From the human T2T-CHM13v2.0 reference genome, Homo sapiens, in the NCBI RefSeq assembly GCF_009914755.1, contig NC_060943.1: a stretch of 64,000 bases of DNA. One strand, given 5' to 3'. Within the stretch, counting starts at the first letter, position 1; every line of letters begins with the position of its first letter. The notes under the pieces were generated by a model. The model was not told the origin of the DNA and did not search any database. It worked only from the letters and a program-made list of their open reading frames with translations. Of the stretch, positions 2,012-63,660 are shown piece after piece. Made by a program: the position numbers and the translations under genes.

Positions 2012-2125
2012 GGCTTAGGCTGTTGCCATGGAAACTGCAGCAAGACTGGGAAAGGGGAGGGGGCTGCGAGGGAGCAAAGAGAGAGCTTGGAGACTGGAAT
2101 TTTCCAGGCTCTGAGCTCACGCTGT
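2012..2125 (+). promoter_or_regulatory. X-box/kB module copy 1
   Basis: GTTGCCATGGAAAC at 2022-2035, 60-nt purine-rich spacer, GGAATTTTCC at 2096-2105, then AGGCTCTG. Confidence 0.8.
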
Positions 2126-2339
2126 ATGCTTCCTTTGTGATAAGTCACTGAGTGAAAATGTGGGTCTTTGTCCACAATAGCATGGTCGCTCTTCATTCCT
2201 CAGTGAGACTCTCTCACGGAGGTGATGAACACACAGCAGTCAGCCCAGTGCCAAATCTCCTAAGAGCCAGGTTTCTCTGTGGGTCCCCTCTGGATTGACA
2301 CTTGCGTATGGACCTTGGGAAAGAGATTCTCATTTCCTC

Positions 2340-3087
2340 TTCTTATTATTTTTTAACTTTTATTTTAGGTTCATGGGTACGTGTGCTGGTTTGTTACGGA
2401 AGTACATTGTGTGTCGTGGGGGTTTGGTGTACAGATTATTTCATCACCAAGGTAATGAGCATCATACCCAACAGGTAGCTTTTTGATCCACTCCCTCCTC
2501 CCATCTTCCACCGTCAAATAGGCCCTGGTGTCTTTTGTTCCCTTCTCTGTGTCCATTTGCACTCATTGTTTAGCCCTCACGTATAAGTGAGAACATGTGG
2601 TATTTGGTTTTCTGTTCCTGTGTTAGTTCAATAAGGATAATGACCTCCAGTTCTATCCATGTTACTGCAAAGGACACAATCTCTTTTTCATGGCTGTGTA
2701 GTATTCCATAGTGTATCTATGCTACATTTTCTTTCTCCAGTCCACTGTTGATGGGCATCTAGATTGATTCCATGTCTTTGCTATTGTTGATAGTACTGTG
2801 ATGAACATACACGTGCATGTGTCTTTATGATGGAATGATTTATATTCCTTTGGGTATATACCCCATAATGGGATTGCTGAGCCAAATGGTACTTCTGTTT
2901 TAAGTTATTTGAGAAATCTCCAAACTGTTTTCCACAGTGGCTGAACTAATTTACATTCCCACCAGCAGTGTGTAAGTGCTCCTTTTTCCCCCCAGCCTCA
3001 CCAGCATCTGTTATTTTTTGACTTTTCAATAATAGTCATTCTGACTAGAGTGAGAAGGTGTGTCATTGCGGCTTTGATTTGCATCTC
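2340..3087 (-). mobile_element. L1 3' end (L1PB/MA-like)
   Basis: Antisense L1 3'UTR/ORF2 end. Confidence 0.85.
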
Positions 3088-3152
3088 ACAACCCCTTTCA
3101 GAAGTGCTTAAAGGATATGAACAGATATTTTTTCAAAAGAAGACATGCAGAT

Positions 3153-3440
3153 CTGGGCATGGTGGCTCAGGCCTGTAATCCCAGCACTCTGGGAGGCTAA
3201 GGCAGGCTGAGGTCAGGAGTTCGAGACCAGCCTGGCCAACATGGTGAAACCCCGTCTCTACTAAAAATACAAAATTAGCCGGGCGTGGTGGCGGACGCCT
3301 GTAATCCTGGATACTCAGGAGGCTGAGGCAGGAGAATCACTTGAACCTGGGATAGGGAGGTTGCAGTGAACCGAGATCTTGCCATTGCACTCAAGCCTGA
3401 GCAAAAAGAGTGAAACTTCGTCAAAAAAAAAATATATATA
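3153..3440 (+). mobile_element. Alu
   Basis: Alu consensus with A-tail. Confidence 0.9.
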
Positions 3441-3713
3441 TATAGAAGAAGAAGACACACATATGACCAACAAGCACATGAAAAAGACATCGTTATTTAA
3501 GGCAGACTCTCTCCAATTATTTAAGTTTGAAAGTCTTTACAAAAGGAGCAAAACCATTTCTACTCTCCTCCTTAGCATGTTGACTTCTAAAAACAGGCTT
3601 TGTGCCACTGAAACGTGAGTCAAGTACAGTTTTGGGCTAATTGTTTACTAGCTGGTTTATATAACAGTAACTCTAACTGTGGACCAGCAACCACAATAAC
3701 AAAAAGCACTTGC

Positions 3714-3998
3714 TGGGCTTAATGACTCACACCTATAATCCCAGTTCTTTGGGAGGCTGAGGCAGGCAGATCGCTGGAGCTCCAGAGTTTGAGACCAGCC
3801 TGGGCACCATGGTGAAACCCTGTCTCTACAAAAAAATTAACCAGGCATGGTGGCATGCACCTGCAGTCCCAGCTACTTGGGAGGCTGAGGTGGGAGGATG
3901 GCTTGAACCCGGGAGACAGAGGTTGCAGTGAGCTGAGATTGTGCCATTGTGCTCCAGTGCAGGCAACAGAGTGAGAGTGTGTTTCAAAAAAACAAAAA
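3714..3998 (+). mobile_element. Alu (AluJ-like)
   Basis: Alu consensus. Confidence 0.9.
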
Positions 3999-61149: not shown

Positions 61150-61462
61150 TCATGTCTCACATAACGACTGCATATATGACGGTGGTCCCATAAGATTATC
61201 ATACCACAGATTTACCATACATTTTCTATGTTTAGGTACACTGATACTTACCATTGTGTTACAGTTGCTTACAGTATTCACTACAGTAGCTTGCTGTCCA
61301 GGTTTATACTCTCAGACCAGCCCTGTACCTTGTAGCCCAGGTATGTAGCAGGCTCTGGCATCCAGGCTGGCGTAAGTGCACTCCAGGATGTTCCACAATA
61401 AAGAACTCACCTAACGAGGCATTTCTCAGAATACATTTCTGTCTTTAGTGATGCATGACAGT
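61150..61462. mobile_element. Tigger3/Golem-like DNA transposon
   Basis: ACGGTGGTCCCATAAGATTAT ... GATGCATGACAGTA. Confidence 0.65.
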
Positions 61463-61490
61463 ACATGCACCATAATAAAGAAATATTAAT

Positions 61491-61810
61491 AGGCTGGGTG
61501 CAGTGGCTCGCGCCTGTCATCCCAGCACTTTGGGAGGCCGAGGTGGGCAGACTACGTGAGGTCGGGAGTTCAAGACCAGCCTGACCAACATGGAGAAACC
61601 CCGTCTCTACTAAAAATACAAAATTAGCCAGGCGTGGTGGCACGTACCTGTAATCCCAGCTACTCAGGAGGCTGAGGCAGGAGAATTGCTTGAACCTGGG
61701 AGATGGAGGTTGAGATGATCATGCCATTGCACTCCAGCCTGGGCGACAAGAGAGAGACTCTGTCTCAAAAAGAAAAGAAAAGAAAAGAAAAGAAAAGAAA
61801 AGAAAAGAAA
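61491..61810 (+). mobile_element. Alu with (GAAAA)n tail
   Basis: Alu consensus. Confidence 0.9.
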
Positions 61811-62721
61811 TATTAATATAAGCCATGACCAATTCACACTGTTTATATAGTAACATAAATATCAGTACATATTCAGTGCTCAAGCCGCCATCATCTCTCC
61901 CCTGGATGGCAGCAGCTGCAGCCTCTCACTGACTCTCTGACTCCACGCCAGCCTCTCTCTCATCCCTCCTCCACTCAGGAGCCAGAAGGAGAATTGACAA
62001 CACTCACAGACCACATCACCTCCACAATCAAGACTCAGTGTCTTCTCAGAAGAGCACTATTCACATTTCTTATCTTGGTTCTGGAAGGTCCTGCCTTTCT
62101 CCCCTTGCCTTCCTCTCCCACCCCATTCCTGCCACTGGCCCTGAACTCACCCTACCCAGCCCACCTCAGCCTATTCCATTTCCTTCTCACCTCTGGGCAT
62201 CGGCACCTGCTGGCTCCCCAAACATCTCTATGGCAGGCTCCTTCTAACCAGTCGGACCTCAGCCCTGGTGTCACTGACCACAGATGGTGTTCCCAGACCC
62301 TCCTGACTGACCTCTGACACACATCTGTGCTACCTCCTGTAGAGAGTCCATTCTTTTTGGAGATCAGTTCTCGTGTCTGTTAAGTCGTGTATTTGTTGTC
62401 CACCTTCTCCACATAAATTGTAGCTTCTTGAGGTCCAATGTCTCATCTTTCTTATCTGGGGCACATAGGTGGTACTAAATACATTACTGTTCATCTGGTA
62501 TTGTTTTATGTAACTTTCTGGTTAATGACTGCTTTACCCATTCATTCTAACCATCAGCAAGGAAGGAGTTGTTCACATTTATGATCTCAGTGGCTACAAT
62601 AGCTACTGGATGGATGAATGCATGACAGATGGATGAATGCATGACAGATGGATGAATCATGGAAGGATGGTTGATTGGAGGGATGTCTGGGTGGGCTGAT
62701 GACTAGTTAGATAAATGCACA

Positions 62722-63160
62722 AATGGATGGTTTGTTGAACTGATGGTTGCGTGGATGTATGTATGTTATGGATTGATGGGTGATCAATGGGTAGACGAAT
62801 GAATGGATGGCTGGTTGAATTGATGGTTGCGTGGAGGTATGTATGTTATGGATGGATGGGTGCTCAATGGATAGATGAATGAATGGATGGTTTGCTGAAC
62901 TGATGGTTGTGTGGATGTATGTGTGTTATGGATGGATGGGTGATCAATGGATAGATGAATGAATGGATGGCTGGTTGAATTGATGGTTGCGTGGAAGTAT
63001 GTATGTTATGGATGGATGGGTGATCAATGGATAGATGAATGAATGGATGGTTTGCTGAATTGATGGTTGTGTGGATGTATGTGTGTTATGGATGGATGAG
63101 TGATCAATGGATAGATGAATGAATGATGGCTGGTTGAATTGATGGTTGTGTGGATGGATG
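62722..63160. repeat. 80-bp minisatellite with alternating A/B units
   Basis: TGATGGTTGY anchors at 62741, 62821, 62901, 62981, 63061 and 63140. Confidence 0.9.
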
Positions 63161-63534
63161 ATATATCAATGAATGGATGGCTCGTTGGATATATGGACAG
63201 GTGCATGGGTATTAGATGGATGCATAAATTGCTGGGTGGATGGATTTGTGGATGGATCAAAACGATGGGTGGATAAATGGATGTATGAATAGATGGATAG
63301 GTTCCTAATGAGAAATGACAATGTCTGTGTTACTCACACTAACAGAATGGAATGTGAATTGAAACCTGATGATTTCCTTGAGAGTCAGAAGAGGATTTCA
63401 AACACCCTACCCAAGACATTTAGCACTGACAAAATCCATGTGGTGACCTCTGCTGGGGTCCCCAGATTGCCCCTCCACAGCTGCGCTGCTCTTGCTTCCC
63501 TCCACCACCCTATTCTGCCCAAGGAGGCTCCCAC

Positions 63535-63660
63535 CTGCCATAGGGATGGGCCCCCAGATCCACTGTTGCCTTGGAGGTGAGGCAGGAAAGAGCTGAGGAA
63601 GGGGCAGAGAGAGCCGGGAGACTGGAATGTTCCTGACTCTGCAGTCAGTGTGTGGCTTCA
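63535..63660 (+). promoter_or_regulatory. X-box/kB module copy 12
   Basis: CTGCCATAGGGAT at 63535-63547, 17-nt gap, GTTGCCTTGGAGGT at 63565-63578, shortened 45-nt spacer, GGAGACTGGAATGTTCCTGACTCTGCAGTCAG (kB-like site 63624-63633). Confidence 0.7.

What the first reader, a model, noticed from the sequence alone, without database searches (positions are those of the whole stretch)
2012..63660. Dispersed family of ~12 homologous RFX X-box + NF-kB-like modules hidden between the transposons
Seen: X-box cores start at 2022, 6112, 7157 (-), 21235, 26487, 29421, 35085, 45302, 52405, 53727, 58984 and 63565. Similarity extends beyond the motifs. Copies share upstream GGCTCAGGCT, downstream YGCAGCTG, a purine-rich spacer often containing GCTGAGGAAGGGG..GAGAG, then GGAGACTGGAATTTTCCAGACTCTGCAGTCAG. 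They show no poly-A tail, TIR, LTR ends or TSD, and match no repeat family I recognise. Established: GTTGCCATGGAAAC fits the RFX palindromic X-box (GTTRCCATGGYAAC), and GGAATTTTCC/GGAAATTTCC resembles Rel/NF-kB sites (it also overlaps NFAT/TEAD-type GGAA(T) half-sites). Inference: an ancient local amplification of one enhancer or promoter unit. The motifs were retained while the spacers drifted and the array was diluted by later Alu/L1/LTR insertions, leaving a distributed multi-copy regulatory system.
Basis: partly seen in the sequence, partly recalled or inferred. Interest (0 to 1): 0.9.

Follow-up and report, generated by a model that had tools for sequence, protein, structure and literature searches.

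The report
Repeated PEG3-domain enhancer modules, largely published
The window holds twelve very old copies of one short regulatory-looking DNA module that belongs to the conserved elements already described upstream of the imprinted gene PEG3, so the pattern is real but mostly known.

Summary
The X-box is far above chance: 7 sites against 0.8 expected. Homology spans about 230 bp, beyond the motifs. Only 5 of 12 copies keep a recognisable GGAATTTTCC element.

The family is not confined to the window. I found 24 copies in the 344 kb scanned between PEG3 and USP29. Three motif patterns gave no homologous copy elsewhere in the genome.

Kim & Ye 2016 (PMC4841594) already reported NF-kB (GGAATTTT) and RFX1 (CCATGG) motifs together in several conserved regions (ECRs) of this interval. 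They also suggested that ECRs arose by duplication. By eye against the mouse ECR sequences, ECR3, ECR12 and ECR16 are members; ECR16 is the copy at 7157.

What appears new:
- the explicit paralogy and the copy number;
- blocks of copies sharing one orientation;
- a second interleaved family, B, containing ECR8, 10, 11 and 14;
- motif columns about 80% identical among copies, against about 51% elsewhere.

Best reading: relics of an ancient local duplication of a regulatory unit, with selection on the two motifs. Function is untested here.

The parts
1945..2149 (+). Family A copy (X-box at 2022; kB-like TGGAATTTTCCAG at 2095)
   Evidence: nhmmer E 1.9e-40; motifs
6034..6263 (+). Family A copy (X-box GTTACCATGGAAAC at 6112; kB-like element degenerate, GGAATATTCT)
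   Evidence: nhmmer E 4.1e-45
7022..7240 (-). Family A copy (X-box at 7157 on the - strand; kB-like element at 7083). By eye the human counterpart of mouse ECR16. Carries the interspersed-repeat tail.
   Evidence: nhmmer E 2.7e-47; by-eye comparison with Material S1 of PMC3769284; tail
21162..21292 (+). Family A copy, 5' half (X-box GTCACCAGGGAAAC at 21235). The kB part is deleted and the interspersed-repeat tail follows.
   Evidence: nhmmer E 9e-24; alignment
26406..26625 (+). Family A copy (X-box GTCACCATGGAAAT at 26487; kB-like GGAAATTTCC at 26557)
   Evidence: nhmmer E 1.1e-43
29341..29553 (+). Family A copy (perfect X-box at 29421; TGGAATTTTCCAG at 29493)
   Evidence: nhmmer E 1.5e-45
35009..35236 (+). 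Family A copy (X-box GCTGCCATGGAAAC at 35085; kB element degenerate). The only copy lying in a CpG-island-like stretch (34801-35601). Carries the interspersed-repeat tail.
   Evidence: nhmmer E 4.1e-38; CpG scan; tail
45209..45448 (+). Family A copy (X-box at 45302; kB element degenerate; interspersed-repeat tail)
   Evidence: nhmmer E 4.5e-33
52345..52456 (+). Family A copy, 5' half only (X-box GCTGTCATGGAAAC at 52405)
   Evidence: nhmmer E 3.3e-17
53728..53792 (+). Family A fragment (X-box ATTGCCATGGAAAC at 53727 plus purine-rich spacer)
   Evidence: nhmmer E 1e-09
58911..59028 (+). Family A copy, 5' half only (X-box TTGGCCATGGAAGC at 58984)
   Evidence: nhmmer E 6.2e-20
63485..63704 (+). 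Family A copy (X-box degenerate, GTTGCCTTGGAGGT at 63565; kB-like GGAATGTTCC at 63623; interspersed-repeat tail)
   Evidence: nhmmer E 1.3e-37
5122..5327 (+). Copy of the second paralog family (B), interleaved with family A across the interval
   Evidence: nhmmer E 2.6e-35; alignment
40963..41235 (-). Copy of family B
   Evidence: nhmmer E 8.4e-55; alignment

Best explanation
The 12 sites are paralogous copies of one module of about 230 bp (family A). It was amplified by local, probably tandem, duplication. This happened before the human-mouse split and after an interspersed-repeat fragment had landed next to the ancestral copy.

[quoted passage not shown] ECR3, ECR12 and ECR16 are members.

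Each copy began with two elements. One is an RFX-type X-box with one consensus half-site, GTTGCC, and one off-consensus half, GGAAAC. The other lies about 45-65 bp downstream and is a near-palindromic GGAATTTTCC element of the Rel-homology type (NF-kB or NFAT). These two elements have been kept by selection. The purine-rich spacer and the flanks drifted to near saturation, and later repeat insertions spread the copies apart.

The most likely function is a set of redundant, tissue-restricted protein-binding regulatory elements (enhancers or silencers) for the imprinted PEG3/USP29/ZIM3 genes.

Shown here: paralogy, confinement to this locus, great age, and excess conservation of the motifs. Inferred: which proteins bind, regulatory activity, and how many copies are still active.
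For: Paralogy:
- A profile from 7 copies finds the other 5 and converges on 12.
- The same profile finds 12 more copies outside the window, giving 24 in the 344 kb scanned.
- With both motifs masked and training on window copies only, three outside copies still score E 3e-19, 8e-12 and 1e-10. All three carry an X-box within 1 mismatch of the core. No motif-less copy appeared at E<0.01.

Confinement to the locus:
- CCATGGAAAC..TGGAATNTTC has 10 hits genome-wide, 4 of them in the window.
- CCATGGAAACNNNAGCTGG has 7 hits, 4 of them in the interval.
- TGGAANTTTCCAGNCTCTG has 5 hits, 3 of them in the window.
- The two off-locus chr19 hits that I fetched match only 22-27 nt of the module.

Age:
- Mean pairwise identity is 0.514 outside the motif columns.
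- Flanks are not alignable apart from a few pairs.

Motif retention:
- Identity in motif columns is 0.803 against 0.514 elsewhere.
- The two motifs are the two top 12-column windows out of 204 (0.85 and 0.79, median 0.53). None of 5000 column permutations reached this. The same two peaks appear in the 12 copies outside the window.
- The core CCATGGAAAC is perfect in 12 of 24 copies and has one mismatch in 9 more.

Link to published elements:
- Kim & Ye 2016 report NF-kB and RFX1 motifs in ECR3, 10, 11, 12, 14 and 16. They find the two together in ECR3, 12, 14 and 16, and propose duplication.
- The mouse ECR3, ECR12 and ECR16 sequences match, by eye, the human copies at window -116142, -49062 and 7157. 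Both motifs are kept while the spacer has indels.
- 16 of 18 ECRs carry H3K4me1 in mouse tissues (Thiaville 2013, passages read).
Against: - No binding or activity data were available here.
- Kim & Ye state that apart from a few named ECRs the rest are fully methylated in the tissues tested, which would include ECR12 and ECR16. ECR3 is hypomethylated only in olfactory bulb.
- In reporter assays most ECRs behaved as repressors.
- Only 3 of the 24 human copies are among the 18 ECRs chosen for more than 75% identity between human, mouse and cow. Most copies may therefore be weakly constrained or lost in other mammals.
- Seven of 12 window copies lack a clear kB-like element.
- 23 of the 24 copies have ordinary low CpG content (o/e 0.12-0.54), so they show no sign of a germline-unmethylated state.
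- The right X-box half (GGAAAC) departs from the recalled RFX consensus.
- GGAATTTTCC departs from the recalled NF-kB consensus at its third base.
- The conservation contrast is measured on an alignment anchored by a profile that contains the motifs, and copies that lost the X-box are harder to find.
- Orthology to the mouse ECRs was judged by eye, not computed.
Confidence: 0.55

Rival explanations
1. The copies are mostly dead relics. The array arose by duplication, but only a few copies (ECR3, ECR12, ECR16) are still functional. The other copies in the window are decaying neutrally, and the motifs stand out only through detection bias and slow human-lineage decay.
For: - Only 3 of 24 copies are among the 18 published ECRs, which required more than 75% identity between human, mouse and cow.
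- Four window copies are 5' halves or fragments.
- The kB element is lost or degenerate in 7 of 12 copies.
- CpG content is ordinary in 23 of 24 copies.
Against: - Among the 21 copies that are not published ECRs, the 10-bp core CCATGGAAAC is perfect in 9 and has one mismatch in 9 more, while non-motif columns are about 51% identical.
- My own estimate, not a call: at that divergence an unconstrained 10-mer would stay intact in a few percent of copies.
- A motif-masked profile found no motif-less copies.
Confidence: 0.25
2. The modules are repeated exons or first exons with promoters of a long transcript. One candidate is the USP29/MIMT1 5' region, which in mouse has 8 non-coding exons spread over 250 kb. 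Another is an extinct tandem gene family, with GCCATGG as a start codon context.
For: - An AG lies just upstream and a GT just downstream in several copies.
- 11 of 12 window copies face the same way as USP29.
- Usp29 has 9 exons over 250 kb, with the reading frame in the last exon.
- The copy at 35085 lies in a CpG-island-like stretch.
Against: - AG and GT are both kept in only 4 of 17 copies that could be scored.
- 11 of the 24 copies lie on the other strand.
- The hub's RefSeq table lists no gene in the window.
- The frame from the ATG falls into at least three phases among copies, with stops after 3-49 codons.
- By eye, that frame is not kept between human and mouse ECR12 or ECR16.
- Spacer lengths of 44-66 nt are not in step with codons.
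Confidence: 0.08
3. The module is an old transposable element family, or part of one, that happens to be dense here.
For: - Copies occur on both strands over the whole interval.
- 5 of 12 window copies end in a fragment whose motif has 509 exact matches genome-wide. I recall this as the head of the MIR SINE.
- Flanks are not homologous.
Against: - Three genome-wide pattern scans of module-specific sequence found hits almost only in this interval. The two off-locus chr19 hits that were fetched lack extended homology.
- There are 24 copies in 344 kb, in blocks of one orientation, and they alternate regularly with family B at spacings of about 3.5-4 kb.
- Exact patterns cannot see very diverged copies, so this test is incomplete.
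Confidence: 0.05
4. The modules are units of a tandem non-coding RNA array (snoRNA or microRNA host type), as in other imprinted domains.
For: Imprinted domains often hold such arrays (recalled: SNORD116, C19MC). The spacing of about 5 kb is regular.
Against: - Rfam at gathering thresholds finds only an Alu-type SRP match in the window.
- RNAalifold on the 12 copies predicts 0 base pairs.
Confidence: 0.02

Closest known systems
ECRs of the Peg3 imprinted domain with NF-kB and RFX1 motifs (Thiaville et al. 2013, PMC3769284; Kim & Ye 2016, PMC4841594)
   Same: - Same genomic interval.
- Same two motifs, CCATGG and GGAATTTT, found together.
- ECR3, ECR12 and ECR16 match family A copies by eye.
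- The authors already proposed that neighbouring ECRs arose by duplication.
   Different: - The papers list 18 ECRs and argue from shared short motifs. In the sections I read, they do not show sequence homology between ECRs.
- Here the homology spans about 230 bp and there are 24 human copies, 11 of the 12 in this window not being listed ECRs.
- Their motif-sharing set splits into two unrelated families: A (ECR3, 12, 16) and B (ECR8, 10, 11, 14).
- Only family A has a full 14-bp X-box. In family B the CCATGG simply abuts GGAATTTT.
- I could not read their S1 and S3 files (rtf, pdf), which may bear on this.
RFX X-box sites of ciliary, testis and MHC class II promoters (recalled consensus GTNRCC N0-3 RGYAAC)
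   Same: A 14-bp near-palindrome, GTTGCCATGGAAAC, whose left half fits the consensus exactly.
   Different: - The right half, GGAAAC, carries A where the consensus has a pyrimidine, and this variant is the ancestral form kept in most copies.
- The sites are far from any annotated promoter and occur 24 times in one interval.
- No S, X2 or Y boxes of the MHC-II module were looked for or seen.
Tandem arrays inside imprinted domains (recalled: C19MC, SNORD116/115, SNORD113/114)
   Same: A many-copy, kilobase-period array lying inside the long transcription unit of a paternally expressed gene.
   Different: No embedded snoRNA or microRNA and no conserved RNA fold. Copies are about 51% identical outside the motifs, so the array is a fossil rather than a live repeat.

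Membership tests
Peg3-domain ECRs, NF-kB/RFX1 class (Kim laboratory) | Lies in the 200-250 kb between the PEG3/USP29 bidirectional promoter and the USP29/ZIM3 end | tested here: met
   - Primer positions in S1 Table place ECR13 and ECR18 on either side of the window.
- CpG islands at window -144.5 to -142.0 kb and at 137.5 to 138.9 kb fit the PEG3 imprinting control region and the USP29 promoter.
- The hg38-to-T2T offset is my estimate from the USP29 start.
Peg3-domain ECRs, NF-kB/RFX1 class (Kim laboratory) | Holds CCATGG (their RFX1 motif) and GGAATTTT (their NF-kB motif) together | tested here: met
   Both are present in window copies 2022, 7157 and 29421, with the variant GGAAATTT in 26487. 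The kB part is missing or degenerate in the other window copies.
Peg3-domain ECRs, NF-kB/RFX1 class (Kim laboratory) | More than 75% identity over more than 50 bp between human, mouse and cow | tested here: inconclusive
   Tested by eye only. The copy at 7157 matches mouse ECR16, for example 42 of 45 bases around the X-box. No other mammalian genome was available, so the other 11 window copies could not be tested.
Peg3-domain ECRs, NF-kB/RFX1 class (Kim laboratory) | Enhancer-type chromatin marks (H3K4me1, with or without H3K27ac) | not testable with these tools
   Literature only: 16 of 18 mouse ECRs carry H3K4me1.
RFX X-box | Two inverted half-sites fitting GTNRCC N0-3 RGYAAC (consensus recalled, not from a call) | tested here: inconclusive
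   The left half is GTTGCC or GTTACC in most copies. The right half is GGAAAC in most copies, one base off the recalled consensus.
RFX X-box | Occupied by RFX proteins | not testable with these tools
   No ChIP data were available. No paper in the library holds both Usp29 and Rfx2.
NF-kB (Rel) site | Fits GGGRNWYYCC (consensus recalled) | tested here: not met
   The kept form is GGAATTTTCC, with A at the third base. It resembles Rel-dimer and NFAT-type GGAA/TTCC palindromes, so it may work like such a site without being a canonical kB site.
Interspersed repeat (transposon) family | Copies spread across the genome | tested here: not met
   Three pattern scans gave 4 of 10, 4 of 7 and 3 of 5 genome-wide hits inside this interval. 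The two off-locus chr19 hits fetched show no extended homology. Exact patterns miss diverged copies.
Interspersed repeat (transposon) family | Match to a curated consensus (Dfam/Repbase); target-site duplications or terminal repeats | not testable with these tools
   No repeat library is held. At about 51% identity, end structures cannot be read.
Imprinted-domain ncRNA arrays | Each unit carries a snoRNA or microRNA or a conserved RNA fold | tested here: not met
   Rfam returns only an SRP/Alu match. RNAalifold predicts 0 pairs.

The most novel reading that the evidence does not exclude
Most of the roughly 200-kb gene-poor stretch between PEG3 and USP29 is the fossil of a tandem array from the stem of placental mammals. 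Its unit, about 7-8 kb long, carried two different regulatory modules: A (X-box plus Rel-type palindrome) and B. The array was born together with the imprinted domain. The surviving 24 A and 15 B modules act together as a dosage-type array of binding sites, for example an RFX-bound hub. Seven of the 18 published ECRs would then be just its best-kept members.
Probability: 0.3. Interest if true: 0.6.

Novelty: new member of a known kind. Interest (0 to 1): 0.4.

Why it matters
The PEG3 domain is a model imprinted locus, and its unusually large set of conserved non-coding elements has no settled explanation.

Showing that at least 7 of the 18 published ECRs fall into two paralog families, with many more unlisted copies in human, does three things:
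- It turns a published guess (ECRs arose by duplication) into a testable history.
- It says which bases in each copy are under selection.
- It points to RFX-type factors as candidate shared regulators.

It also warns that motif sharing among these ECRs reflects common descent rather than independent gain. The gain over the literature is moderate, because the motifs and the duplication idea are already in print.

Tried and rejected
- **Whole-genome search with one copy as DNA query.** It found only the query itself. This search is too insensitive for copies of 50-70% identity, so I switched to patterns.
- **Whole-genome search with a sequence-only model.** The model was built, but this genome cannot be searched with a model.
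- **Larger duplicated unit.** After masking stretches with 5 or more self-matches (22% of 264 kb), flanks of +-4 kb showed no consistent in-register homology. A few pairs did match; for example, the copies at 29421 and 35085 share an upstream minisatellite. The evidence for a larger unit therefore comes only from the A/B alternation.
- **Copy genealogy.** Nearest neighbours by identity are not the physically adjacent copies, and best identities are only 0.54-0.67. No duplication order could be read.
- **Coding reading.** Frames from the X-box ATG are open for 3-49 codons, fall in different phases, and by eye are not kept between human and mouse. Rejected.
- **Splice-site reading.** Weak.
- **RNA structure.** None.
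- **Mouse ECR17 as counterpart of the copy at 35085.** The by-eye comparison was not convincing, so I do not claim it.
- **X-box consensus from papers.** I could not retrieve it, so the consensus is given as recalled.
- **Literature.** Searches for Peg3+ECRs+duplicat*, USP29/RFX/X-box/enhancer, Usp29+Rfx2 and Peg3/RFX1/NF-kappaB/ECR turned up no paper beyond Kim & Ye 2016 that treats these modules.

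
Full report

Yes. GTTGCCATGGAAAC with up to two mismatches gives 10 matches. These are 7 distinct sites, because 3 near-palindromic sites count on both strands. Shuffles gave 0.80 on average, and 0 of 100 reached 10.

An nhmmer profile built from seven copies found the remaining five on its own, with E values from 1.6e-16 to 6.7e-6. 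Eleven are on the + strand and one is on the - strand.

The module is about 230 bp long.

The title overstates one point. The element TGGAATTTTCCAG is recognisable (up to 2 mismatches) in five of the twelve copies. The window as a whole has 11 matches against 3.96 expected. Four copies are 5' halves or fragments.

**2. How far does the family reach?**

The window's genome is the human T2T assembly, and it could be searched and sampled. I fetched 180 kb upstream and 100 kb downstream of the window. The window-trained profile finds 12 more copies there, so there are 24 in the 344 kb scanned.

Their orientations come in blocks:
- three - copies just upstream of the window (-22.7, -14.9 and -7.3 kb);
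- the window's eleven + copies and one - copy;
- five - copies downstream (83 to 109 kb);
- further upstream, two + copies (-49 and -35 kb) and two - copies (-116 and -153 kb).

Three genome-wide pattern scans with module-specific sequence gave 4 of 10, 4 of 7 and 3 of 5 hits inside this interval. The two off-locus chr19 hits that I fetched match only the 22-27 nt of the pattern. The module is therefore not a common interspersed repeat. Exact patterns cannot exclude very diverged copies elsewhere.

**3. Are the copies truly homologous beyond the motifs, and are the motifs specially kept?**

I masked both motifs in the twelve window copies, rebuilt the profile and searched 264 kb. Three outside copies still scored E 3e-19, 8e-12 and 1e-10. 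No motif-less copy appeared at E<0.01. The homology therefore does not rest on the motifs.

Across all 24 copies, mean pairwise identity is 0.514 outside the motif columns and 0.803 inside them. In a sliding 12-column scan of 204 windows, the X-box (0.85) and the kB-like element (0.79) are the two highest peaks, against a median of 0.53. None of 5000 column permutations reached this.

The 10-bp core CCATGGAAAC is perfect in 12 of 24 copies and one base off in 9 more.

Two caveats apply. The alignment comes from a profile that includes the motifs. Copies that lost the X-box are also harder to detect.

**4. What it is: the literature**

The window lies between PEG3 and USP29. Thiaville et al. 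2013 (PMC3769284; passages and Material S1 read) defined 18 evolutionarily conserved regions (ECRs) in this interval. Sixteen of them carry H3K4me1 in mouse tissues.

Kim & Ye 2016 (PMC4841594; abstract, sections 5, 6, 8, 10, 13 and 16 and S1 Table read) made three relevant points:
- NF-kB (GGAATTTT) and RFX1 (CCATGG) motifs occur in ECR3, 10, 11, 12, 14 and 16.
- The two motifs lie together in ECR3, 12, 14 and 16.
- Neighbouring ECRs share motifs, and ECRs may have arisen by duplication.

Their primer table places ECR13 upstream and ECR18 downstream of the window. CpG islands in my scan fall where the PEG3 imprinting control region and the USP29 promoter should be.

I read the mouse ECR sequences against the human alignment by eye:
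- ECR3 corresponds to the copy at window -116142 (- strand).
- ECR12 corresponds to the copy at -49062 (+ strand).
- ECR16 corresponds to the window copy at 7157. About 42 of 45 bases around the X-box are identical, and they share sequence on both sides, including the repeat-derived tail.

In all three pairs the X-box and the GGAATTTTCC element are kept, while the spacer differs by indels. For example, there are 43 nt between them in mouse ECR16 and 66 nt in human, by my count.

**5. A second family, and a possible larger unit**

The mouse ECR8, 10, 11 and 14 sequences resemble each other, not family A. Starting from the human counterpart of ECR14 (window -37504), iterative nhmmer finds 15 copies of a module of about 285 bp, family B, each at E of 2e-15 or better in the 344 kb. 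Two lie in the window, at 5122-5327 (+) and 40963-41235 (-).

The published motif-sharing set is therefore two unrelated paralog families. Only family A has a full 14-bp X-box. In family B, CCATGG merely abuts GGAATTTT.

A and B alternate. In the - block upstream of the window the order is A, B, B, A, B, A, with A-to-A distances of 7.6 and 7.8 kb and B about 3.5-4 kb from A. This hints at an old A+B tandem unit.

Direct flank homology is not recoverable. That is expected if neutral sequence between copies is as diverged as the non-motif module columns.

**6. Age**

Five of the twelve window copies, and mouse ECR16, carry the tail ..GGCACACAGTAGG..CTCAATAAATGTTT.. about 35 nt downstream of the module. 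A pattern from this tail has 509 exact matches across the genome, against 0 for the reversed control. The tail is therefore a piece of a high-copy interspersed repeat. I recall it as the head of the MIR SINE, but this was not tested.

The ancestral unit thus already held this fragment. Three copies have mouse counterparts, and all copies are far more diverged from each other than human is from mouse at ECR16. I infer that the amplification happened after the SINE insertion and before the human-mouse split. This fits Kim & Ye's statement that ECRs are found only in placental mammals.

**7. Rivals**

- *Structured RNA.* Rfam finds only an Alu-type SRP match, and RNAalifold predicts no pairs.
- *Coding exon.* Frames from the X-box ATG are open for 3-49 codons, lie in different phases, and by eye are not kept between human and mouse.
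- *Non-coding exon.* AG and GT at the module borders are both present in only 4 of 17 scorable copies. Eleven of 24 copies face the other way. RefSeq lists no gene in the window.
- *Transposon.* See section 2.
- *Mostly dead relics.* This is the serious rival. Only 3 of 24 copies passed the published conservation filter. Most ECRs outside a named few are reported as fully methylated in the tissues tested. Most ECRs acted as repressors in reporter assays. Against it stands the motif retention in the non-ECR copies described in section 3.

**8. Mechanism I commit to**

Family A copies are protein-binding regulatory modules. An RFX-type factor binds at the X-box and a Rel-homology factor (NF-kB or NFAT type) binds at the palindrome. 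The modules were multiplied by local duplication and act redundantly on the imprinted genes of the domain.

My odds, step by step:

| Step | Odds |
|---|---|
| Paralogy and local origin | about 0.95 |
| Identity with the ECR class | about 0.9 |
| Selection on the motifs | about 0.75 |
| RFX as the binder | about 0.6 |
| A Rel or NFAT factor at the palindrome | about 0.35 |
| Present-day regulatory activity of most copies | about 0.4 |

**9. Novelty**

The core is already in print. What I did not find in the searched library or in the sections I read is the following:
- the demonstrated 230-bp homology;
- the copy numbers (24 A and 15 B);
- the split of the published set into two families;
- the blocks of orientation;
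- the quantified contrast between motif and spacer conservation.

The authors' S1 and S3 files (rtf, pdf) could not be read and may contain alignments that bear on this.

Noticed in passing
window 5122-5327 (+) and 40963-41235 (-); 13 more copies from window -82270 to 115603 in loci L002-L031: There is a second dispersed paralog family (B, about 285 bp) with 15 copies interleaved with family A. By eye it contains the published ECR8, 10, 11 and 14. Whether it occurs elsewhere in the genome was not tested.
   Followed up: partly
window 34801-35601: This is a CpG-island-like stretch (GC at least 0.55, CpG o/e at least 0.6, up to 24 CpG per 300 bp) covering the family A copy at 35085. It is the only A copy of 24 with this feature, and no gene is annotated here. 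It could be an unannotated promoter.
   Followed up: no
window 7022-7240 (-) compared with mouse ECR16: The human counterpart of ECR16 lies on the - strand, convergent with the + copy at 6034-6263 about 760 bp away. The mouse ECR16 sequence is printed in the forward sense on the mouse + strand. This suggests a small inversion in one lineage, although the papers say ECR orientation is conserved. The judgement is by eye only.
   Followed up: no
window 26100-26370 and 28204-28464: These form an inverted pair of about 271 bp at 89% identity, flanking a minisatellite (27590-28464; one array has a 76-bp unit at 27926-28106). It is much younger than the module family.
   Followed up: no
window 31710-32059, 35969-36672, 36759-37125 and 62722-63180: Several minisatellites lie between the modules: a 14-bp unit (TCCAGGGGGCACCA) in 25 copies, a C/T-rich 33-bp unit in 18 copies, 39- to 135-bp units, and an 80-bp unit in 5.7 copies. 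Related arrays recur upstream of the A copies at 29421, 35085 and 63565.
   Followed up: partly
window 25385-25501 (-): This is the only Rfam match in the window: signal recognition particle RNA at 71.1 bits (threshold 70), spanning 117 nt. It is most likely an Alu element.
   Followed up: no
loci L024-L025, window 90140-97647 (-): Three family A copies lie on the - strand inside or beside the annotated lncRNA LOC105372475 (93135-97453, +), antisense to it.
   Followed up: no
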